IMG/VR virus record: IMGVR_UViG_2541047681_000004
Source: a virus
Lineage: Duplodnaviria > Heunggongvirae > Uroviricota > Caudoviricetes
Length of the DNA stretch: 19,518 nt
Reading direction: 5' to 3' (one strand)
The notes below the pieces were generated by a model, which made no database searches, was not told where the DNA came from, and worked only from the letters and a program-made list of their open reading frames with translations. Shown here one piece after another: positions 4,799-12,754 of this stretch (its first letter is position 1; every line of letters starts with the position of its first letter). A program made the translations under genes and the position numbers.

Positions 4799-6568
4799 TC
4801 AGTTGCCGTTAACAATGCTGATAACACTGCTGCGGGCCGGTGTGGTCAGCGTGGCCATGACTTCATCCAGTGCGGCTTCCGGTACGCCGTCCGGGTACTG
4901 TGCCGTTAACTGGCGGTAATGTTCCGGCGTCCAGGTAAGGCCGTCGGCGCTGAACTTATCGCGCAGGGCTTTCGCGGCCTCCACATGAGTCATGGGACGT
5001 TGTTCAGTGCGCGGCCCGCGTACGTCAGAGGCCTGACCACGCTTCGGCATATAGGCCGGAAGTGTGGTGTCGTCGATATGTTTATACGGGTCAAGCCGCC
5101 CGCCGAACGGCAGCGCCTTCGCCTTGCGTGCGGCGGCTGCATCTGCGGCGTTGTCTGTACCGGTAACCAGCGCTTCGGTTTCTTTTGCCGCCATCTGTGC
5201 CGGGGTTTCCGGCAGGGCTTTGTAACTTTCGCCAAATACCGCCGCGCCTTCAGCAAAGCCAAACTCGTTCTTTCTGACCTCTTCGACCAGGAAGAACGTC
5301 TCGTGGCCGTCCTCACCGGTCAGAACCACCTGTGCCACATCGCTGCGCCATGGGTTACGGGTAATCATCAGTTTTTCACCAACCAGTACGCCCGGTACCG
5401 TTGATACGTCAAATTCAGTGCCCCGGAACGAGACACGAAGTTTTGGCGTGACTTTGCGGAGTTCTGGTGCCGCCACAGCCAGTTCACGACATACCTCAAC
5501 GGGAGGCGCTTTTTTCAGCTGCTCAGCAGTAATCTTCAGCCAGATATCCGTGCGGGTTTTACCGTGGCGGCTGTGAACAGCCGTGGCGTTAAAGTGGCTG
5601 CGCCATTTCGCGGCCAGCGCGTTGAGTTCTTCCAGACTGTGAACCGGCCGGAACTTCAGACCCGGCTCCAGCTTGCGTTCGATAATGTCCCGCGCCTTTT
5701 CCACCTGTCCGGTGGCGCGGGCGTTATGCGGCTTGTGCGCTATCAGGTCGATGCCCAGTGAGCGGCACATGTTTTTCGTCATACCCGCGGTGTTTGCCGA
5801 GCCGGGGTCGAGATAGAGTATTTTCGGCACGCCGTGCAGCACGTCTGCGCCGCCACGCTCCTGCATGGCGTTGATAAGCACAGAACACAGGTTCTCACCG
5901 GATTCCGCGCCCGTCACATACTCAACGTAAATCCAGCCGCTGGCATGGTCGGTAATCTCGTAACTCCACACGCGGTCACTGGCGATACGGGCAAGGTTAG
6001 CGGGCTTGTTCTTGTAGAACTTCGCGCTGTCCATCACCTGCAGCCCTTTATGTCCATTGCTCAGGTAGTAAAGCGTGCAGAGTGAGGCGTCAATCTGCCA
6101 GACATGATTGGGATGCAGACTGGCCACTTCGGTATGTGGTGCAGGGGCATCCAGTTGTTCCGGGTGCAGGCCATAGTTACGCAGAGCACGGCTGATGGCA
6201 TCTTCAGACAACGGGAAAAACTCACCGGTGGTTTCATCTGTTCTGCCTGCGGTGATAAAGCCGTTAGCCCGCAGGGTTTCCACTGCATCTGCGATGGAAT
6301 AGAGACGCTTACCGTTCTTGCGGGTGGCCTCACGCAGTGTGGCAGATATCAGCGCGGCTTCGTCGCGGGTCAGGGCGCTGCGCCCGGCATCGGCGCGTTT
6401 TTTGCGTTTATCAGTCACAGAGACCTCCTTCAGCCTGCGCAGCAGAGTGGCGCGGGACATGCCAAGTTCAGCACAGGCAGCGTCGTATATTGCACCGCGT
6501 TTACCATGCCCCGCGTCACGTGCCGCGCGGGCGACATAAACCAGTCGTTCAGTCAGGGCAGCATTCAT
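4799..6568 (-). CDS. DDE transposase with integrase-like core (transposable-phage TnpA), 589 aa
   Basis: N-terminal HTH-like region, a central core with Asp-containing motifs (WQIDAS, LYLDPGS) consistent with an rve/DDE fold, and a B-like ATPase gene immediately downstream as in Mu A-B. Confidence 0.85.
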   Translation of the reverse strand: MNAALTERLVYVARAARDAGHGKRGAIYDAACAELGMSRATLLRRLKEVSVTDKRKKRADAGRSALTRDEAALISATLREATRKNGKRLYSIADAVETLRANGFITAGRTDETTGEFFPLSEDAISRALRNYGLHPEQLDAPAPHTEVASLHPNHVWQIDASLCTLYYLSNGHKGLQVMDSAKFYKNKPANLARIASDRVWSYEITDHASGWIYVEYVTGAESGENLCSVLINAMQERGGADVLHGVPKILYLDPGSANTAGMTKNMCRSLGIDLIAHKPHNARATGQVEKARDIIERKLEPGLKFRPVHSLEELNALAAKWRSHFNATAVHSRHGKTRTDIWLKITAEQLKKAPPVEVCRELAVAAPELRKVTPKLRVSFRGTEFDVSTVPGVLVGEKLMITRNPWRSDVAQVVLTGEDGHETFFLVEEVRKNEFGFAEGAAVFGESYKALPETPAQMAAKETEALVTGTDNAADAAAARKAKALPFGGRLDPYKHIDDTTLPAYMPKRGQASDVRGPRTEQRPMTHVEAAKALRDKFSADGLTWTPEHYRQLTAQYPDGVPEAALDEVMATLTTPARSSVISIVNGN

Positions 6569-8096: not shown

Positions 8097-8528
8097 GTGG
8101 AATTACGCAAAATGAATAACAAAGATGTTAACGCTGTGCTTTCCCGGTTAATGTCACTATTCCAAGCAGAGAATGATAGTGAGTTGGCAAGAGCGCTTAA
8201 CGTCAATAGGCAGACACTTGCAAGTTGGAGGAAGCGTGATTCTGTGCCTTATGCAATTTGCATAAACATCGCAGAAGAAAAGGGGGTTTCTTTAGATTGG
8301 TTGCTAACAGGTAGAAAACAAGGTTTATCAAAAGAAGTAGACGTAACTCCGACGCAAGTGCAGTTTAGCCAAGCTGACCTTACTATGCTTGAGCTTTTAA
8401 AGCAGCTAGACCCCGAGGTTCGTAACGATCTTCTGCGAGGCGCTGCGGAAAAACAGCGAGTGATCGAGATGGAAAAACAACTGAAGGAATTATCCGCAAC
8501 GATTGAGCGGTTAAAAAATGTGGGTTAA
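8097..8528 (+). CDS. CI-type phage repressor
   Basis: N-terminal HTH (LARALNVNRQTLASWRKR) with a coiled-coil C-terminus, typical of CI-like repressors. Divergent from the early operon. Start uncertain: GTG 8097 or ATG 8112. Confidence 0.7.
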   Translation: MELRKMNNKDVNAVLSRLMSLFQAENDSELARALNVNRQTLASWRKRDSVPYAICINIAEEKGVSLDWLLTGRKQGLSKEVDVTPTQVQFSQADLTMLELLKQLDPEVRNDLLRGAAEKQRVIEMEKQLKELSATIERLKNVG

Positions 8529-8650: not shown

Positions 8651-9544
8651 ATGAGTGGTGATGTGAGAAATTATCGTATTGAGTTTCATCAGCTATCGTT
8701 TAAGGCCACAGATCAGCTGGCAAATCTCGGAGATGCTTTTCAATCTGTAATTGATAAACAGAGCCCTTCCTCTTCAAACCATGAGGGTTTTACTAGAGAA
8801 ATTTGGGGGTTGAAAAAACGCGCGGATGGTTCTTTTAGTGGAGAGTTGAGAAAATTTCGCAACTCGAACATTCCGGATAAAGGTGCACCAGGGAAACAGT
8901 CTACCCCTATTCCACTTGCCAAGGATGAAGGGATCATTGAGCGCAATTTCTTTGTATTCTATCCTCGAATCAATGTTATAGGTTGGCACTATAATCATAT
9001 GGCTTGTGGTATAAGCCGTTTTAGTGCATTTCTTTCAACTATCTTTGGTTCAAAGGTTAAGCCCGCACCTTTGCTGGAAAAAGATGCAATCGCTAGGCTT
9101 ATGAGAGGAGATGTCAAAATGAAAAAAATCCAGTTGACGATTCCTCGCCCCCGTAATCCTGAGTTTTACCCTGATACTGATTTCAGTCAAAAGACACTAC
9201 AACTGCTTGGTGATGCAGGTGCCGATACAATGCAAATTGTAATGGGGATTAATACTCGCCGTGGCGATAGTGATGGTAGGCTTAAGCAGAATATAAAATT
9301 TGCTATGCAAGAGTTAGTCGAGTTTGGGGCGAAAAAGGCTGTAATTGATGTGTTCGATGCTGATGGTGTTGTCCATCCTGTGGATTTGATTGCCGAGCGT
9401 ATTTCGTCCTATCAATCGGTAGTTACTGACGCTCGTTTCCCTCCAGCCGAAACCATGTACCGTCTAATCGATACTGCGTATGCTGAAAACCGGGAGAGTA
9501 TCAATGCATATATTGGAGAAGATGAACTCGGCCCTATTGCTTAG
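8651..9544 (+). CDS. unknown soluble protein, 297 aa; candidate RexA-like component of a repressor-linked exclusion module
   Basis: AAGGA 9 nt upstream. No hydrophobic segments. AT-rich codon usage unlike the flanking phage genes. Sits directly after the CI-type repressor on the same strand. Function is inferred from context only. Confidence 0.6.
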   Translation: MSGDVRNYRIEFHQLSFKATDQLANLGDAFQSVIDKQSPSSSNHEGFTREIWGLKKRADGSFSGELRKFRNSNIPDKGAPGKQSTPIPLAKDEGIIERNFFVFYPRINVIGWHYNHMACGISRFSAFLSTIFGSKVKPAPLLEKDAIARLMRGDVKMKKIQLTIPRPRNPEFYPDTDFSQKTLQLLGDAGADTMQIVMGINTRRGDSDGRLKQNIKFAMQELVEFGAKKAVIDVFDADGVVHPVDLIAERISSYQSVVTDARFPPAETMYRLIDTAYAENRESINAYIGEDELGPIA

Positions 9545-9941
9545 TTTATTGATTGGATGTGGGATTGGTTTTCTCTACTGGTTCAAGTTGCCCCATATGC
9601 CAGTAGCCGCAATCCCAAACTTCATGACTACATTGTCCAGTGTCTTTGCAACGTTGTTAGGTTTTATTATTACAGCAATTGCACTACTTGCATCATTGCT
9701 TGATAAACCGTTACTTAAAAACATGCAAAAAACCGGACATTACAAGCGTCTGATGACCGATGCATTCTACACTTGCTTAGTTTTGCTAGTGTTGGTGTTG
9801 ACATGTTTGATTGGGTTGATGCTGCAAAGTAAGCATCAAGAGATTGTAGCCGCTATTCTCATTGGGCTTGTTGTTATGTCTATGTTGTGTTTATTACAAA
9901 CAGGTAGGCGATTATTCAATATAATCAAAGTGATATCATAA
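9504..9941 (+). CDS. small polytopic membrane protein, ~145 aa, 4 predicted TM helices; candidate RexB-like partner
   Basis: GGGAGAG 5 nt upstream of ATG 9504; start overlaps the upstream gene by 41 nt. Four hydrophobic segments (ALLLSLLIGCGIGFLYWF, LSSVFATLLGFIITAIALLASLL, AFYTCLVLLVLVLTCLIGLML, IVAAILIGLVVMSMLCLL). Alternative start ATG 9522. Confidence 0.6.
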   Translation: MHILEKMNSALLLSLLIGCGIGFLYWFKLPHMPVAAIPNFMTTLSSVFATLLGFIITAIALLASLLDKPLLKNMQKTGHYKRLMTDAFYTCLVLLVLVLTCLIGLMLQSKHQEIVAAILIGLVVMSMLCLLQTGRRLFNIIKVIS

Positions 9942-9993: not shown

Positions 9994-10761
9994 CTACTCT
10001 AAATTACTTACAATAAGTTCGCGCCGTAGTGTTCCCTTTCCTGCAAGACTGTAGTTGACCTTCACACAGTGAATGTTCAGACCGTTAAAAACCTGCCGCA
10101 TTTCCGGGATATCGTTGACCGATATAATCATCTTTCCTCTGATGCACCGGGCCAGCTCTGCCAGCCGCGAGTAGTTCCCTTCAGGAAAATCCACACCATA
10201 GCCTTCCGTACCCAGGTACGGTGGGTCGCAGTAGAACAGCGTGTGCGGACGATCATAACGCTCAATGCACTGTTGCCAGTCCATGTGTTCTATGACTGTT
10301 CTGGAAAGCCGCAGGTGTGCCGCTGACAGTTCTTCTTCAATACGCAGCAGGTTGAAGCGTGGCGGGGATGTGGTGGAGGTACCGAAGCTGTGCTCTGCCA
10401 CCTTGCCGCCAAACGCCTGCTTCTGAAGGTAGTAAAACCGTGCCGCACGCTGGATATCCGTCAGTGTTTCTTCCGGGGTGATCTGCAGCCATTTGTAGAT
10501 CTGACGGCTGACCAGCGCCCATTTGAACTGGCGGACAAATTCTTCCAGGTGATGCTTTACCACCCGGTACAGATTCACCAGTTCACCGTTGATATCATTG
10601 ATGACTTCGATCTTGCCGGGTGTCTTAAGAAAATAGAGCGCTGCTGCCCCACAAAACGGCTCCACATAACATTCATGCGCCGGAAACAGCGGCAGGATGT
10701 GTTTTGCAAGGCGGCGTTTGCCACCAATCCATGGAACGATGGGTAATGTCTGCATTTTCAT
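9994..10761 (-). CDS. DNA N6-adenine methyltransferase (Dam-like), 255 aa
   Basis: Motif I-like FCGAAA and catalytic DPPY (FYCDPPYLGTEGYG) in the order seen in Dam-family enzymes. No restriction endonuclease partner visible. Confidence 0.8.
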   Translation of the reverse strand: MKMQTLPIVPWIGGKRRLAKHILPLFPAHECYVEPFCGAAALYFLKTPGKIEVINDINGELVNLYRVVKHHLEEFVRQFKWALVSRQIYKWLQITPEETLTDIQRAARFYYLQKQAFGGKVAEHSFGTSTTSPPRFNLLRIEEELSAAHLRLSRTVIEHMDWQQCIERYDRPHTLFYCDPPYLGTEGYGVDFPEGNYSRLAELARCIRGKMIISVNDIPEMRQVFNGLNIHCVKVNYSLAGKGTLRRELIVSNLE

Positions 10762-10830
10762 AATCTGTAAGCCTTTTACAATTATAAAAAATATGGCAGG
10801 CTAGTCTGGTCTCGCGAGACTGACTGAACC
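10762..10830 (-). promoter_or_regulatory. putative dam promoter with upstream 12-bp palindrome
   Basis: On the minus strand a consensus TATAAT (RC of 10781-10786) lies ~20 nt upstream of the dam ATG. Perfect palindrome GTCTCGCGAGAC at 10809-10820 just upstream. Confidence 0.3.
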
Positions 10831-10866
10831 TTGGTCGGCTCACAGCGCATTCCTGTGGGGCGATGG

Positions 10867-10894
10867 CCAGCCCGGTGTTCGGGTACCGGGCTGG
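10867..10894 (+). other. GC-rich hairpin (9-bp stem, 10-nt loop)
   Basis: CCAGCCCGG-tgttcgggta-CCGGGCTGG, followed on the plus strand by TCGTTCTTTC. Lies in the 190-bp gap between dam and the 71-aa ORF; could be a terminator-like or regulatory structure. Confidence 0.3.
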
Positions 10895-10950
10895 TCGTTC
10901 TTTCATGATGCGGCAGGGATGGCGGGATTTCTGTTAATGTGGTTTAGGGA

Positions 10951-11166
10951 TTATCCGGGGCGATTTTCTGACCTTATCCGGTCCAGGGCATAAGTAATAC
11001 CTTCTGCAAAAACAGAAGTATCAAACTGCTTTTGTATTCCCTGAAAATGAAAAGCGGCACGACAGACACTCAGTTCTCCGCGGTATAACCGGATAATATC
11101 TTCCAGAACATTGTTCACTGCTTCAGCACGGCGCTGATGTTCTGTTAACGTTAATCGGGGATTCAT
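10951..11166 (-). CDS. hypothetical protein, 71 aa
   Basis: Strong AAGGAG 6 nt upstream of the ATG (RC of 11173-11178). No family recognised. Confidence 0.4.
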   Translation of the reverse strand: MNPRLTLTEHQRRAEAVNNVLEDIIRLYRGELSVCRAAFHFQGIQKQFDTSVFAEGITYALDRIRSENRPG

Positions 11167-11167
11167 G

Positions 11168-11569
11168 ATGCACTCCTTAAATGATGATTTTTATGTACTC
11201 ACCGGCAAAATATTCTGCCGATTACTGAACACGCATCCGGCACCTCAGGTTTTGATTTATTCTGGTTTTTTCGATATCCCGGACCAGGTTGATCACGACC
11301 AGAAAAAGTGCCGGTGTTTTATTGATACGCTGATATGGCTTCGGGATAACAGCTATATTCGTTACTCTCAGTTGCTGGCTGTGGGAGCGGCTGATGTCGT
11401 CCTCACGGAAAAAACGCTCTGTCTGCTCAATGCCATGCCGACCTTTCTGCAGCCCCGGCCCGTACCATTTAAAGAGTCACTTCTGGATGCAGTAAAAACC
11501 GGTGAAAATGCAGTCATCGCTGAATGCGTATCCCGGATTATGCGTTACGTGTTTAATGAACGTAAGTGA
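11168..11569 (+). CDS. hypothetical protein, ~133 aa
   Basis: GGGGA 6 nt upstream of ATG 11168 (track start 11165). Its 5' end is back-to-back with the 71-aa ORF and its 3' end overlaps the convergent NTPase gene by 25 nt. No family recognised. Confidence 0.35.
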   Translation: MHSLNDDFYVLTGKIFCRLLNTHPAPQVLIYSGFFDIPDQVDHDQKKCRCFIDTLIWLRDNSYIRYSQLLAVGAADVVLTEKTLCLLNAMPTFLQPRPVPFKESLLDAVKTGENAVIAECVSRIMRYVFNERK

Positions 11570-12273
11570 GGTTTATCCGCTGTCTGCATAATCCCGATAG
11601 CCAGTGCGAGGGGAAGTAATTCCGGGGAAACTCTTTCAAACAGCGATGCCCATTCTCCTCTCGCCATCACTCTGTCCAGCCCGCCCCCCAACTGCATTTC
11701 AGCAATCTTCCTGATTTCCCGGAACAACGCCGCTTTGATCTCTTCATGCTCAGCTTTATTTTCCGGTGTCAGAAGGTATTCGTCGAAGAACCGGGGAGGC
11801 TGGTTAATCGGGATGTGTTCCTGTTTGCCGTACTTCGGGGACGAACAACATTCTGTTGACTGACCAGTGAGTTTACGTAACTCCTTCATGAGCAGCTCCT
11901 GATCGTAAACTGTCATCAGTGCCGCAATGGTGGCATGCAGTGCATCGGGCAGTATCCAGGGTTGCCGGCCCGTGGGGCATATAACATCCAGCAGCTCATT
12001 CGTCCGACAGATACGCTCCTCGCCGTATGACAACAGGCCCTGTCCCGTGTATTCCTCCAGCCTGATCACTGTGCCAGCCCGTGGTTTCTGCCATGTGCTC
12101 AGATCATCCCCACTCATACGGCGCTCACCGTCCACGTCTGCGGCGTCGACAATGACGCTGTTTCCGAATTCCTGTTTCACCACTTCCTCTATCCGCGCCA
12201 ATATGTAACTTTTACCGCTGCCCACAGGACCGGACACGGTGACAGTGATGACCGGATTCAGTGTCTGCGTCAT
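11545..12273 (-). CDS. P-loop NTPase-domain protein, 242 aa
   Basis: Walker A GPVGSGKS near the N-terminus. GAGGAG 8 nt upstream. Divergent from the late lysis operon. C-terminal half unrecognised. Confidence 0.6.
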   Translation of the reverse strand: MTQTLNPVITVTVSGPVGSGKSYILARIEEVVKQEFGNSVIVDAADVDGERRMSGDDLSTWQKPRAGTVIRLEEYTGQGLLSYGEERICRTNELLDVICPTGRQPWILPDALHATIAALMTVYDQELLMKELRKLTGQSTECCSSPKYGKQEHIPINQPPRFFDEYLLTPENKAEHEEIKAALFREIRKIAEMQLGGGLDRVMARGEWASLFERVSPELLPLALAIGIMQTADKPHLRSLNT

Positions 12274-12403
12274 ATCGTATTCTCCTCTGTGAATAATTCA
12301 TCGTTTATCCTGCACATCCCGTATCCCCGGCTCTCTTAACGCGCTTTAAAATCCTTCGCGCCCTGTATTTGTGATGCTGTCTCCACCAGATAAGGAGACA
12401 CAC
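12274..12403. promoter_or_regulatory. divergent promoter region (NTPase gene leftward, late lysis/packaging operon rightward)
   Basis: 130-bp gap between divergently oriented genes that both have strong ribosome-binding sites. By analogy with Mu, the rightward late promoter may depend on the Mor-like activator. No motif assigned. Confidence 0.3.
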
Positions 12404-12754
12404 ATGAAAAACCTGAAAAAATTCATTCCCCCTGTTAAAAAACCTCGCCTCAGCGGCTGGCTGCTGACCTCAGTGCTGTTGCTGGGCATCATCGCTCTGG
12501 TCTCGCCACAGCAGTTGCCTGTTGTGATCTACAAGCTGGCACTCATCACGCTGGCAGCAGTGCTGGGGTACTGGCTTGACCGTTCGCTCTTCCCCAAAGC
12601 CCGTCCCGGTCAGTACCTGAAACATGAAGACAGGCTGATGGCTGAAGGGCGTTTCCCGGTGCAGACCGGCCTTCACCTTGTATTTTCTGCTGCGTTAATC
12701 CGCCGTGCACTGATTGTTGCAGCTGTCTGTCTGGCTGTTGCGATGGGGCTTTAA
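12404..12754 (+). CDS. putative holin, ~116 aa, 3 hydrophobic helices
   Basis: AAGGAG 6 nt upstream of ATG 12404 (track ORF begins at GTG 12371). Three hydrophobic segments, positioned immediately upstream of the endolysin. Confidence 0.5.
   Translation: MKNLKKFIPPVKKPRLSGWLLTSVLLLGIIALVSPQQLPVVIYKLALITLAAVLGYWLDRSLFPKARPGQYLKHEDRLMAEGRFPVQTGLHLVFSAALIRRALIVAAVCLAVAMGL

What the first reader, a model, noticed from the sequence alone, without database searches (positions are those of the whole stretch)
10951..12273. Accessory trio between immunity and late regions: P-loop NTPase plus two small ORFs with back-to-back starts
The 242-aa P-loop protein (GPVGSGKS) has a strong ribosome-binding site and is transcribed away from the late operon. 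The 71-aa and ~133-aa ORFs start within 2 nt of each other on opposite strands, each with its own Shine-Dalgarno-like sequence, leaving no room for separate promoters, and the 133-aa ORF overlaps the NTPase 3' end. This compact, partly antisense layout is unusual and could be a small toxin/antitoxin-like or defence/anti-defence module; alternatively one small ORF is not real.
Basis: inference. Interest (0 to 1): 0.5.

Follow-up and report, generated by a model that had tools for sequence, protein, structure and literature searches.

The report
Head-to-head phage gene pair sharing CATG
In a Mu-like E. coli prophage, two small real genes start back-to-back on opposite strands in a shared CATG, an arrangement conserved in two unrelated phage families and so probably functional, though its job and that of the adjacent Walker-A protein are unknown.

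Summary
The window is a BcepMu-like E. coli prophage. The 71-aa (-), 134-aa (+) and 242-aa (-) ORFs lie exactly as described, and all three are real genes.

The trio is two separable parts.

(1) The 71/134-aa pair is a conserved mobile cassette. About 50 loci keep the two start codons overlapping in CATG. These loci are E. coli and Serratia BcepMu-like prophages and P2-like phages, where the cassette sits in the cos-proximal defence hotspot beside swapping defence systems. Both genes are under purifying selection (dN/dS 0.14 and 0.08).

(2) The "NTPase" is a mosaic protein. Its 75-aa N-terminal module carries a Walker A motif, also occurs as stand-alone 68-90-aa phage proteins, and is joined to shuffled C-terminal modules. 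No complete NTPase fold is detectable. Serratia keeps only the C-terminal domain, as an 89-aa gene.

No protein matches a Pfam (above cut-off), NCBIfam or PADLOC family or a solved structure. Both AlphaFold models were poor.

Most likely, each gene's ribosome site and promoter lie inside the other's 5' end, which would give 5'-overlapping antisense transcripts and reciprocal expression. The 134-aa protein may be winged-helix-like. A toxin-antitoxin or defence role is neither shown nor excluded.

The parts
10951..11166 (-). Small gene (71 aa, predicted helical and soluble; PHROG 4490). It is one half of the head-to-head pair.
   Evidence: ORF; RefSeq WP_001069611; PHROG. 31% identical to the Serratia 73-aa partner at the same position. 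Present in 499 of 5426 complete E. coli genomes. The P2-type counterpart (63-64 aa, PHROG 2454) has dN/dS 0.14 but no detectable homology to this protein (hhalign probability 0.1%).
11165..11569 (+). Big gene (134 aa; PHROG 2266), possibly winged-helix-like. It is the other half of the pair.
   Evidence: 52% identical to the Serratia 139-aa protein and about 30% to the P2-like 143-aa proteins. dN/dS 0.076 in the P2-type set. Present in 492 E. coli genomes. The best solved-structure match is the recognition-helix/wing region of the MarR-family regulator FabT (6jbx), which is not significant at E=0.14. The AlphaFold model is poor, pLDDT 47.
11164..11170 (.). CATGATG junction. The minus-strand ATG (11166-11164) and the plus-strand ATG (11165-11167) overlap. 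A second in-frame plus-strand ATG lies at 11168.
   Evidence: Read directly. The same CATGATG is found in Serratia, and CATG in all P2-type loci.
11157..11178 (.). Reciprocally embedded ribosome-binding sites. GGGGA (11157-11161, + strand) for the big gene lies in codons 2-4 of the small gene. AAGGAG (11173-11178, - strand) for the small gene lies in codons 3-5 of the big gene.
   Evidence: Sequence; equivalent motifs in Serratia and P2-type loci. Synonymous diversity is lower in codons 2-16 of both ORFs in the P2-type set (0.25 against 0.37, combined Mann-Whitney p=0.003).
11545..12273 (-). Mosaic 242-aa protein (PHROG 3787). It is the first gene of the leftward unit that diverges from the lysis operon.
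   Evidence: The same position next to the holin gene is kept in BcepMu-like prophages with and without the pair. C-terminal modules are shuffled among homologues. Within-E. coli pN/pS is 0.25.
12049..12273 (-). N-terminal 75-aa module carrying Walker A (GPVGSGKS at 12208-12231).
   Evidence: The exhaustive search found 58 cluster representatives, most of which match only residues 1-75. In the alignment of 23 of them, G20 and K21 are invariant and S22 is at least 90% conserved. Only the P-loop plus the first helix matches solved NTPases. Stand-alone 68-89-aa versions lie inside long viral contigs. Some members have GAESSGKN instead of the canonical motif.
11548..11763 (-). C-terminal domain of the 242-aa protein (about residues 171-242). 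It is inherited as a block with the pair.
   Evidence: 46% identical to the 89-aa stand-alone Serratia gene that occupies the same place and also overlaps the 3' end of the big gene. Present in 499 E. coli genomes, matching the pair.
11545..11569 (.). 25-nt convergent 3' overlap of the big gene and the 242-aa gene.
   Evidence: The overlap is 37 nt in Serratia. The overlapped codons encode non-conserved tails in both proteins.
10789..10904 (+). Conserved structured plus-strand RNA element ending in an intrinsic terminator. Hairpins at 10842-10857 and 10865-10896, then a T-rich tail. It lies between dam and the small gene and may be a small RNA or a leader/attenuator of the plus-strand unit that includes the big gene.
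   Evidence: Promoter-like TTTTCA-16-TACAAT at 10755-10782. Strong terminator at the same spot in Serratia. Six-sequence alignment and RNAalifold: 33 pairs, 6 with compensatory changes, mostly in the terminator stem. In L013 and L047 the element directly precedes a plus-strand cargo gene. No Rfam hit.

Best explanation
The region holds two separable accessory modules of a BcepMu-like temperate phage.

Module A is the 71-aa (-) / 134-aa (+) pair. It is a conserved, horizontally mobile two-gene cassette whose start codons overlap in CATG. There is no intergenic DNA, so each gene's Shine-Dalgarno site lies in the first codons of the other. This is shown.

Each gene's promoter must also lie inside or beyond the other's coding sequence. 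This is inferred, most clearly in P2-like phages, where each gene has its own downstream terminator.

The two mRNAs therefore have complementary 5' ends covering both ribosome-binding sites. The promoters face each other. I propose that expression is reciprocal, through promoter interference and 5' antisense pairing. That would make the cassette a miniature toggle, topologically like the face-to-face promoter switches of P2 (C/Cox) and phage 186 (CI/Apl).

In this proposal the 134-aa protein, weakly MarR/winged-helix-like, is the binding or regulatory partner, and the small helical protein is its antagonist or effector. All of this is inferred.

In the window, the minus-strand unit would run: 242-aa gene, then antisense of the big gene, then the small gene. 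The plus-strand unit would run: structured leader with terminator, then antisense of the small gene, then the big gene.

Module B is the 242-aa protein. It is a mosaic of a 75-aa Walker-A phosphate-binding module, a middle module, and a C-terminal domain that travels with the pair. It is probably a nucleotide- or phosphate-binding accessory protein rather than a conventional enzyme of phage replication.

The biological role of both modules is most likely in phage-host or phage-phage conflict, or in the control of neighbouring cargo.
For: The genes are real and the arrangement is conserved: about 50 loci, 40 distinct pairs, CATG kept; dN/dS 0.14 and 0.076.

The ribosome-binding sites are embedded reciprocally. 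Synonymous variation is reduced in codons 2-16 of both ORFs.

In phage Midge the small gene has its own minus-strand terminator and the big gene has a 3' hairpin. This leaves only the partner's ORF as room for a promoter.

The modules are separable.

Natural deletions remove the big gene's codons 19 to the end while keeping the small gene and the 242-aa gene (about 7 genomes by the difference).

The P2-type pair stays constant next to swapping, PADLOC-confirmed defence cargo in the gpA-gpQ hotspot (hotspot defined in PMC9122126).

The P-loop protein is mosaic and its N-module also stands alone.

Hints of a winged helix: (FabT, E=0.14); the LTAKGLEVLN motif in a solo paralogue; the depositor's annotation 'putative transcriptional regulator'.
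Against: - No sigma-70-like promoter was found inside either ORF by the consensus scans, whose hit counts did not exceed chance.
- No transcript data could be consulted, so the antisense/toggle step is pure inference.
- The winged-helix assignment is below significance. Pfam MarR, DUF2513 and HTH models do not hit.
- The big proteins are acidic to neutral (pI 4.7-6.8), which is unusual for a DNA-binding repressor.
- The small proteins of the two lineages share no detectable homology, so the partner may not be the same protein.
- Relatives of the big protein occur solo in co-directional operons: L013, phage NrS-1 and a Helicobacter pullorum prophage. The big protein therefore does not always need a divergent partner.
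- Within E. coli, the constraint on the small gene is weak (pN/pS 0.50), and one antisense frame scores similarly.
Confidence: 0.4

Rival explanations
1. Toxin-antitoxin-like or abortive-infection defence (or anti-defence) cassette. One protein of the pair is a growth-arresting or anti-phage effector and the other neutralises it. The head-to-head overlap serves to set their ratio.
For: - The sizes are typical of two-gene toxin-antitoxin or defence cassettes (63-73 aa plus 134-143 aa).
- The pair is mobile between unrelated temperate phages.
- The P2-type pair lies in the validated gpA-gpQ defence hotspot beside retron, Fic, DUF262, metallo-beta-lactamase-fold and AAA systems.
- Natural deletions and frameshifts hit the big gene while the small gene is retained. 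This fits a dispensable effector with a retained neutraliser.
- The acidic big protein (pI 4.7 in P2-type) would also fit an anti-defence decoy.
Against: - No hit to any PADLOC model, Pfam toxin or antitoxin family, or NCBIfam.
- Type II toxin-antitoxin genes are co-directional and co-transcribed, whereas these are divergent.
- The pair stays constant while the true defence cargo next to it swaps. That looks more like a resident regulator or flank than like cargo.
- Homologues of the big protein exist alone.
Confidence: 0.25
2. A three-component system. The C-terminal domain of the 242-aa protein (a stand-alone 89-aa gene in Serratia) works together with the pair. In E. coli the Walker-A module is an added sensor or energy module.
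For: - The C-terminal domain, the big gene and the small gene co-occur almost perfectly in complete E. coli genomes: 499, 492 and 499 genomes, or 530, 520 and 529 places.
- The same three-gene order, with a 3' overlap, is kept in Serratia at 31-52% identity.
- Alleles of the P-loop gene that lack the C-terminal domain occur in prophages that also lack the pair (L041-L046 and L049).
Against: - Co-occurrence within one species may simply reflect physical linkage.
- P2-like phages carry the pair with no homologue of the C-terminal domain.
- The mosaic homologues P0060 and P0064 carry this C-terminal module, but their genomic context could not be examined, so it is not known whether they lie next to a pair.
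- The 3' overlap covers only non-conserved tails.
Confidence: 0.15
3. There is no functional coupling. The overlap is only genome compaction in a size-limited phage, and the three genes are unrelated morons. Alternatively, one small ORF is a spurious ORF.
For: - Phage genomes are compact.
- The 3' overlap does look like mere compaction.
- Promoter scans find nothing special.
- Within E. coli, pN/pS of the small gene is only 0.50.
Against: - The exact CATG start overlap is retained in lineages whose big proteins are only about 30% identical and which sit in two unrelated phage families and different genomic neighbourhoods. Drift would not preserve this.
- Both ORFs are under purifying selection in 33 distinct P2-type pairs.
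- Both have conserved ribosome-binding sites.
Confidence: 0.07
4. The 242-aa protein is a conventional housekeeping phage NTPase or kinase, for example a nucleotide kinase, a helicase loader or a packaging ATPase.
For: A canonical Walker A motif, GPVGSGKS. Sub-threshold Pfam hits to AAA_30, KAP_NTPase, Zeta_toxin and cobW.
Against: - All Pfam, NCBIfam and PDB matches cover only about 30-40 residues around the P-loop and fall below the curated cut-offs.
- The conserved module is 75 aa, has no conserved Walker B acid, exists as 68-90-aa stand-alone proteins, and is fused to shuffled, unrelated C-termini.
- Some members have a degenerate motif, GAESSGKN.
- Natural alleles delete residues 52-124.
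- The gene lies in a variable cargo slot and is missing from related phages: Klebsiella phage KP12 and Phi06_2974 B share only the flanks.
Confidence: 0.05

Closest known systems
Face-to-face promoter genetic switches of temperate phages (P2 C/Cox with Pc/Pe; coliphage 186 CI/Apl with pL/pR). Cited from my own knowledge of the literature.
   Same: Two divergently oriented small genes. Their promoters fire towards each other, so the 5' ends of the transcripts overlap and interfere, giving mutually exclusive expression. Found in temperate phages of enterobacteria, including P2-like ones.
   Different: - In those switches the promoters lie in an intergenic region. Here the intergenic distance is negative (CATG is shared), so promoters and ribosome sites would sit inside the partner's ORF.
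- The proteins are not homologous to C, Cox, CI or Apl.
- No operator or promoter has been identified.
- The cassette lies in accessory regions, not at the immunity locus. The window has its own CI-type repressor at 8097-8528.
Type I toxin-antitoxin loci and other cis-antisense pairs whose RNAs overlap at the 5' ends (for example symE/SymR and zor/orz). Cited from my own knowledge.
   Same: A divergent transcript is complementary to the translation-initiation region of its partner. The loci are compact and are found on mobile elements.
   Different: Here both transcripts encode conserved proteins. Neither product is a small hydrophobic toxin (GRAVY -0.5 to 0.05). No RNA-only partner is evident.
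MarR-family / winged-helix regulators encoded divergently from their target gene
   Same: About 140 aa, with a predicted helix / winged-helix-like / helix order. Motif L..NGYI...(wing)...LTEKxLxxLN. The best PDB match is the MarR-family regulator FabT over its recognition helix, wing and C-terminal helix. Divergent orientation to a small gene.
   Different: The match is not significant (E=0.14). There are no Pfam MarR, HTH or DUF2513 hits. The proteins are acidic. No operator is known.
Accessory cargo of the P2 gpA-gpQ (old/tin) hotspot and other prophage defence hotspots (Rousset et al. 2022, PMC9122126)
   Same: The P2-type homologous pair sits in exactly that hotspot, next to PADLOC-recognised defence systems. 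The window's copy also sits in a variable cargo slot of its prophage.
   Different: The pair matches no known or candidate defence family. It stays constant while the neighbouring systems swap.
P-loop NTPases, and minimal beta-(P-loop)-alpha 'phosphate-loop' prototype proteins (PDB 6c2u)
   Same: A Walker A motif between a beta strand and a helix. Invariant glycine and lysine. The module profile hits ABC transporters, kinases and the designed phosphate-loop protein over that element.
   Different: - The whole conserved module is about 75 aa.
- There is no conserved Walker B.
- No additional core strands are detectable.
- It is found as a natural stand-alone 68-90-aa phage protein and as the N-terminus of mosaic proteins.
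- Its activity is untested.

Membership tests
P-loop NTPase fold (Walker-type) | Walker A motif GxxxxGK[ST] between strand beta-1 and helix alpha-1 | tested here: met
   GPVGSGKS at residues 15-22. G20 and K21 are invariant and S22 is at least 90% conserved in 23 diverse homologues. A few members are degenerate (GAESSGKN).
P-loop NTPase fold (Walker-type) | Walker B (hhhhD/E) and a complete alpha/beta core of at least five strands, recognised by a family profile | tested here: not met
   The acid after the second strand is not conserved. Pfam and NCBIfam hits are all below cut-off and cover only about 30-40 residues. The PDB profile search aligns only the P-loop and helix. The module is 75 aa and also stands alone at 68-90 aa. 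The AlphaFold model is too poor to judge (pLDDT 48).
Type II toxin-antitoxin system | Two co-directional, co-transcribed genes, usually with the antitoxin first | tested here: not met
   The genes are divergent, with overlapping start codons.
Type II toxin-antitoxin system | Homology of either protein to a known toxin or antitoxin family | tested here: not met
   No Pfam, NCBIfam or PADLOC hit for either pair protein in three lineages. Zeta_toxin scores only E=0.17 on the P-loop of the 242-aa protein.
Type II toxin-antitoxin system | The toxin arrests growth and is neutralised by its partner | not testable with these tools
   This needs expression assays. Indirect evidence only: natural alleles lose the big gene but keep the small one.
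Known or candidate anti-phage defence systems (PADLOC 2.0) | A significant match of a component to a defence-system model | tested here: not met
   Zero families for the small and big proteins of the E. coli, Serratia and P2 types and for the solo paralogue. Only weak P-loop-level hits (E of at least 0.001) for the 242-aa protein and its mosaic relatives. Neighbouring P2 cargo run as a positive control scores up to 1e-116.
MarR / winged-helix transcription regulators | A profile match to a winged helix-turn-helix family, or a confident structural match | tested here: inconclusive
   Pfam gives none. The PDB profile search gives FabT (6jbx) at E=0.14 over the recognition helix and wing. The motif LTEK/LTAKG..LN is present. 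The structure model is unusable.
DUF2513 (label given by UniRef to the Serratia homologue) | A match to the Pfam DUF2513 model | tested here: not met
   No DUF2513 hit for the window protein, the Serratia protein or the P2-type protein, even at E of 1 to 5.
T7 gp5.5 / gp5.7 (H-NS inhibitor; suggested in the phage Midge annotation) | Detectable profile similarity to T7 gp5.5 or gp5.7 | tested here: not met
   hhalign of the 13-sequence family profile against gp5.5 and gp5.7 gives probability 0.2% for each. The templates were single sequences, so this is a weak test.
Face-to-face promoter switch (P2 C/Cox, 186 CI/Apl type) | Divergent genes whose promoters face each other, so that the transcripts overlap at their 5' ends | tested here: inconclusive
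   The topology is forced by the zero intergenic distance, and in phage Midge by each gene having its own terminator. However, no promoter was detected by consensus scans, and no transcript data were available.
Face-to-face promoter switch (P2 C/Cox, 186 CI/Apl type) | Both products are DNA-binding regulators acting on shared operators | not testable with these tools
   There is only a weak winged-helix hint for the big protein, and nothing for the small one.
Rfam RNA families (for the structured element at 10789-10904) | A covariance-model match | tested here: not met
   No hit at the gathering score or at E up to 5.

The most novel reading that the evidence does not exclude
The CATG head-to-head pair is a previously undescribed kind of self-contained genetic toggle. 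It would be two protein-coding genes whose promoters and ribosome-binding sites are each embedded in the other's first codons. The two mRNAs would then be obligate mutual antisense regulators and only one product could be made at a time. Temperate phages of two families would use this toggle to gate accessory or defence cargo between lysogeny and lytic growth.

Separately, the 75-aa Walker-A module may be a natural minimal phosphate-binding domain. It works alone at 68-90 aa and as a portable N-terminal module, which would make it relevant to ideas on the origin of P-loop proteins.
Probability: 0.15. Interest if true: 0.8.

Novelty: new variant of a known kind. Interest (0 to 1): 0.5.

Why it matters
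Divergent genes that share their start codons are usually dismissed as annotation errors. Here the arrangement is kept in about 50 loci, with the big protein down to about 30% identity, in two unrelated temperate phage families. About 9% of complete E. coli genomes carry it, and cluster records list E. coli O25b:H4-ST131 among the carriers. In P2-like phages it sits at the edge of the best-studied phage defence hotspot.

If the overlap enforces reciprocal expression, it would be a very compact natural switch, and possibly the regulator of what defence hotspots express. If it is a defence or anti-defence pair, it would be a new one.

The 75-aa Walker-A module is an uncatalogued small domain family with stand-alone members. 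That makes it interesting for the evolution of P-loop proteins.

All of this can be tested with simple experiments.

Tried and rejected
- **Structure route.** AlphaFold2 on the 134-aa and 242-aa proteins with their shallow alignments gave pLDDT 47 and 48. I therefore ran no fold search, because matches would be meaningless.
- **Family searches.** Pfam, NCBIfam, PADLOC and PHROGs gave only unnamed PHROGs.
- **DUF2513 label and T7 gp5.5/5.7 hint.** Neither was reproduced.
- **PDB profile searches.** Nothing for a 6-sequence profile of the big protein. Only E=0.14 for a 13-sequence profile. Only P-loop-level hits for the N-terminal module.
- **Homology between the two kinds of small protein.** None found.
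- **Promoter and terminator scans.** Counts were at chance level and no internal promoters were found.
- **Rfam.** Nothing.
- **Genome-contig scans.** None for the big protein. For the N-terminal module, three loci were returned, of which two were false relatives, a PilT-like ATPase and a SARP/AAA protein.
- **Metagenome scan.** No new lineage.
- **Literature.** No paper mentions the accessions or this arrangement. The P2 hotspot papers do not discuss the pair in the passages retrieved by my term searches; I did not read them in full.
- **Within-E. coli pN/pS.** It does not discriminate the coding strand well, because one antisense frame scores similarly. I rely on the cross-lineage data instead.
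- **A functional antisense role for the 3' overlap with the 242-aa gene.** Rejected, because only non-conserved tails overlap.
Full report
**Context.** The window is 99% identical to Escherichia phage PhiKM, genus Bcepmuvirus. The query region (window 10700-12500) matched 636 of 5426 complete E. coli genomes, mostly as prophage copies. The RefSeq annotation of one such prophage and family scans give this map:
- A leftward early operon: Mor, Gam, transposase at 4799-6568, and a Ner-like HTH gene.
- A CI-type repressor at 8097-8528 (+).
- Two plus-strand cargo genes, of 297 aa and of 153 aa (membrane protein). PhiKM lacks both.
- A Dam methylase at 9994-10761 (-).
- The three ORFs of the finding.
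- The holin, SLT, Rz and head genes (+).

**The observation.** Every coordinate is right.
- The 242-aa ORF (11545-12273, -) has GPVGSGKS and an AGGAG ribosome site. It diverges from the lysis operon.
- The 71-aa ORF (10951-11166, -) and the 134-aa ORF (11165-11569, +) share the sequence CATGATG.
- The AAGGAG of the small gene lies in codons 3-5 of the big gene. The GGGGA of the big gene lies in codons 2-4 of the small gene.
- The 134-aa ORF overlaps the 3' end of the 242-aa ORF by 25 nt.

The window holds 83 ORFs of at least 70 aa in six frames, so reality has to be shown by conservation.

**All three are genes.** Each has a PHROG of unknown function (3787, 2266, 4490) and a RefSeq protein.

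Serratia BcepMu-like prophages keep the same layout: Dam (-), a 73-aa gene (-), CATGATG, a 139-aa gene (+), then an 89-aa gene (-) overlapping its 3' end by 37 nt, then the holin gene. Identities to the window proteins are 31% for the small protein, 52% for the big protein, and 46% between the 89-aa protein and the C-terminal 70 residues of the 242-aa protein.

A tblastn search of phage genomes then found the big protein at about 31% identity in P2-like phages: Midge, ST147-VIM1phi7.1 and FSL SP-004. In every one of them the depositors had annotated a 63-64-aa gene on the other strand whose start overlaps it by 2 nt.

I scanned IMG/VR with a family alignment and checked the loci by script. 49 of 50 loci examined have a small ORF of 63-73 aa (86 aa in one, L081) starting in the same CATG as the big ORF, giving 40 distinct protein pairs. 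The one exception, L091, is a rearranged locus with a 46-aa small ORF and an extended big ORF. In 33 distinct P2-type DNA pairs the median dN/dS is 0.14 for the small gene and 0.076 for the big gene.

The reading that one small ORF is not real is therefore refuted. An arrangement that survives to about 30% protein identity, in two unrelated phage families and in different neighbourhoods, is not drift.

**What the overlap implies.** There is no intergenic DNA, so each ribosome-binding site is inside the partner's first codons. This is shown directly by the sequence. Consistent with double constraint, synonymous diversity in the P2-type set is lower in codons 2-16 of both ORFs than elsewhere (0.25 against 0.37; combined one-sided Mann-Whitney p=0.003).

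In phage Midge the small gene is followed by its own strong minus-strand terminator, and the big gene by a 3' hairpin that lies before the convergent dinI-like gene. Each gene therefore looks like a separate monocistronic unit whose promoter can only lie inside the partner. This is an inference.

That arrangement gives face-to-face promoters and mRNAs whose complementary 5' ends cover both ribosome sites. The topology is that of the P2 Pc/Pe and phage 186 pL/pR switches (my own knowledge), but compressed to a negative spacer.

The consensus promoter scans found nothing above chance, and I had no transcript data. The reciprocal-expression mechanism is therefore my best inference, not a result.

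**The window's own wiring.** On the minus strand, the promoter in the 100-bp region between the 242-aa gene and the holin gene would transcribe the 242-aa gene, then the antisense of the big gene, then the small gene.

On the plus strand, a conserved element lies between dam and the small gene. It comprises:
- a promoter-like TTTTCA-16-TACAAT at 10755-10782;
- two hairpins, at 10842-10857 and 10865-10896;
- a T-rich tail.

Serratia has a textbook terminator at the same place. An alignment of six copies shows compensatory changes in the terminator stem.

In two other prophages this element directly precedes a plus-strand cargo gene. In L013 that gene is a solo paralogue of the big protein. In L047 it is an unrelated 113-aa gene. 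The element may therefore be a small RNA, or a leader/attenuator for the plus-strand unit that ends in the big gene. It has no Rfam match.

**The proteins of the pair.** Neither matches Pfam, NCBIfam or PADLOC in any lineage.
- The UniRef label 'DUF2513' on the Serratia protein is not reproduced by Pfam.
- The HHpred hint to T7 gp5.5/5.7 in the Midge annotation is not reproduced by hhalign (probability 0.2%).
- The AlphaFold model of the big protein is poor (pLDDT 47) but all-helical, with a helix / gap / helices order.
- A 13-sequence profile finds as its best solved structure the MarR-family regulator FabT, over the recognition helix, wing and C-terminal helix. This is not significant at E=0.14.
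- The family motif L..NGYI..(wing)..LTEK.L..LN, which reads LTAKGLEVLN in the solo paralogue, looks like a winged-helix wing.

I therefore call the big protein 'possibly winged-helix-like'. Against a classical repressor, these proteins are acidic to neutral (pI 4.7-6.8).

The small proteins are soluble and look helical from their sequence; no structure or secondary-structure prediction was run on them. The BcepMu-type and P2-type small proteins share no detectable homology. They diverge fast: 31% identity where the big proteins are 52% identical. Lost signal and true non-homology therefore cannot be told apart.

More distant relatives of the big protein occur alone, in co-directional operons, in Nitratiruptor phage NrS-1 and in a Helicobacter pullorum prophage.

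**The 'NTPase'.** The word-index search found only E. coli relatives. They include alleles with residues 52-124 deleted (182 aa) and alleles with a different, shorter C-terminus (141 aa).

The exhaustive search found 58 cluster representatives, and most match only residues 1-75. Their sequences show one conserved N-terminal module followed by shuffled, unrelated modules, in proteins of 74-364 aa. Viral contigs carry complete stand-alone genes of 68-89 aa.

In an alignment of 23 diverse modules:
- the P-loop glycine and lysine are invariant and the serine nearly so;
- the acid after the second strand is not conserved;
- a tryptophan and an E-R/K pair are conserved.

Some members have GAESSGKN. 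Pfam and PDB profiles match only the strand, P-loop and helix element, all below family cut-offs. The AlphaFold model is unusable.

The Walker A motif is therefore real and selected, but membership in a conventional NTPase family fails. The module is better described as a small phosphate- or nucleotide-binding domain of unknown activity.

The gene always occupies the first position divergent from the holin gene in BcepMu-like prophages, whether or not the pair is present.

**Is it a trio?** Counts in complete E. coli genomes:

| Segment | Genomes (of 5426) |
|---|---|
| Small gene | 499 |
| Interior of the big gene | 492 |
| C-terminal domain of the 242-aa protein | 499 |
| N-terminal Walker-A module | 570 |

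The C-terminal domain, the big gene and the small gene thus form one inherited block, as they do in Serratia. The Walker-A module is wider and separable.

P2-like phages have the pair without any homologue of the C-terminal domain.

Natural variants (L019, L020) have lost the big gene's codons 19 to the end but keep the small gene and the 242-aa gene. That leaves a tidy minus-strand operon. The big gene is therefore dispensable in a prophage, which argues against it being an essential antitoxin.

The 3' overlap with the 242-aa gene covers only the non-conserved tails of both proteins.

**Neighbourhoods.** In P2-like phages the pair lies between gpQ/cos and gpA. This is the hotspot shown by Rousset et al. 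2022 to hold anti-phage systems (PMC9122126).

Across 34 loci the pair is constant while its neighbours swap. PADLOC recognises those neighbours as a type VI retron reverse transcriptase (3e-104), Fic (PDC-S04/SoFic), a metallo-beta-lactamase-fold protein (PDC-M48B), a DUF262 protein (Orf5/HEC-06, 2e-116) and an AriA-like ATPase.

This fits a role in conflict or in control of cargo, but it does not prove one.

**Verdict.**
But this is not one obligate trio and not a conventional NTPase, and no toxin-antitoxin or defence function is shown.
- The best-supported explanation is a mobile two-gene cassette with reciprocally embedded translation and transcription signals, and hence probably reciprocal expression. 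Next to it lies a mosaic Walker-A accessory protein.
- I hold the anatomy and evolution with high confidence (about 0.85) and the mechanism with about 0.4.
- The families are catalogued only as hypothetical proteins. I found no paper describing the arrangement.

Noticed in passing
window 10755-10908 (+); also L003 5640-5776, L013 2960-3110 and 3600-3740, L047, L050: A conserved structured plus-strand RNA element between dam and the small gene. It has a promoter-like site, two hairpins and an intrinsic terminator, with compensatory base changes in the terminator stem. It has no Rfam match. In some prophages it directly precedes a plus-strand cargo gene, so it may be a small RNA or a leader/attenuator.
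   Followed up: partly
window 8651-9544 (+) and 9480-9941 (+): Two genes just downstream of the CI-type repressor on the same strand, positioned much as rexAB follows cI in phage lambda. One encodes 297 aa (PHROG 7651, unknown function) and the other a 153-aa multi-pass membrane protein. Phage PhiKM lacks both, so they are variable cargo. Neither has a Pfam or PADLOC hit. They are a candidate lysogen-expressed exclusion or defence pair.
   Followed up: partly
L019 and L020, 4001-4060 (equivalent to window 11165-11545): Natural deletion alleles that remove the 134-aa gene from codon 19 to just before the stop codon of the 242-aa gene. The small gene and the 242-aa gene stay intact. About 7 of roughly 499 E. 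coli genomes carry this, judging by the difference in counts.
   Followed up: partly
L013 3157-3537 (+): A second, solo paralogue of the big protein (126 aa, 27-32% identity, motif LTAKGLEVLN). It is inserted between dam and a duplicated dam 5' remnant, directly after a copy of the structured element. It has no divergent small partner; the minus-strand ORF from its CCATGG start is only 11 codons.
   Followed up: partly
window about 11800-11830 (codons about 150-158 of the 242-aa gene): The window's allele has 242 aa, and so does L008. Five of the six other alleles checked have 247 aa, with a tandem five-residue repeat (IPVNT-IPVNQ). The window lacks one repeat unit.
   Followed up: no
window 12274-12385; L003 6654-6784: The roughly 110-bp divergent control region between the 242-aa gene and the holin gene has a block conserved between E. 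coli and Serratia (CTCTTAA.G..CTTTAAAA). It probably holds the Mor-dependent late promoter and the leftward promoter. The holin gene probably starts at ATG 12386, after AAGGAG, rather than at GTG 12371.
   Followed up: no
L054 4992-5240; also L051-L055: Stand-alone 68-89-aa Walker-A mini-proteins in high-GC phage contigs. In L054 the gene sits among small early genes upstream of an RNase H-like gene and a primase/helicase-like gene.
   Followed up: partly
L021 44-316 (+), phage Midge: The annotated 'hypothetical protein' next to cos contains a strong minus-strand terminator (198-174) that probably ends the small gene's transcript. This ORF, whose length varies between phages, may not be a real gene.
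   Followed up: no
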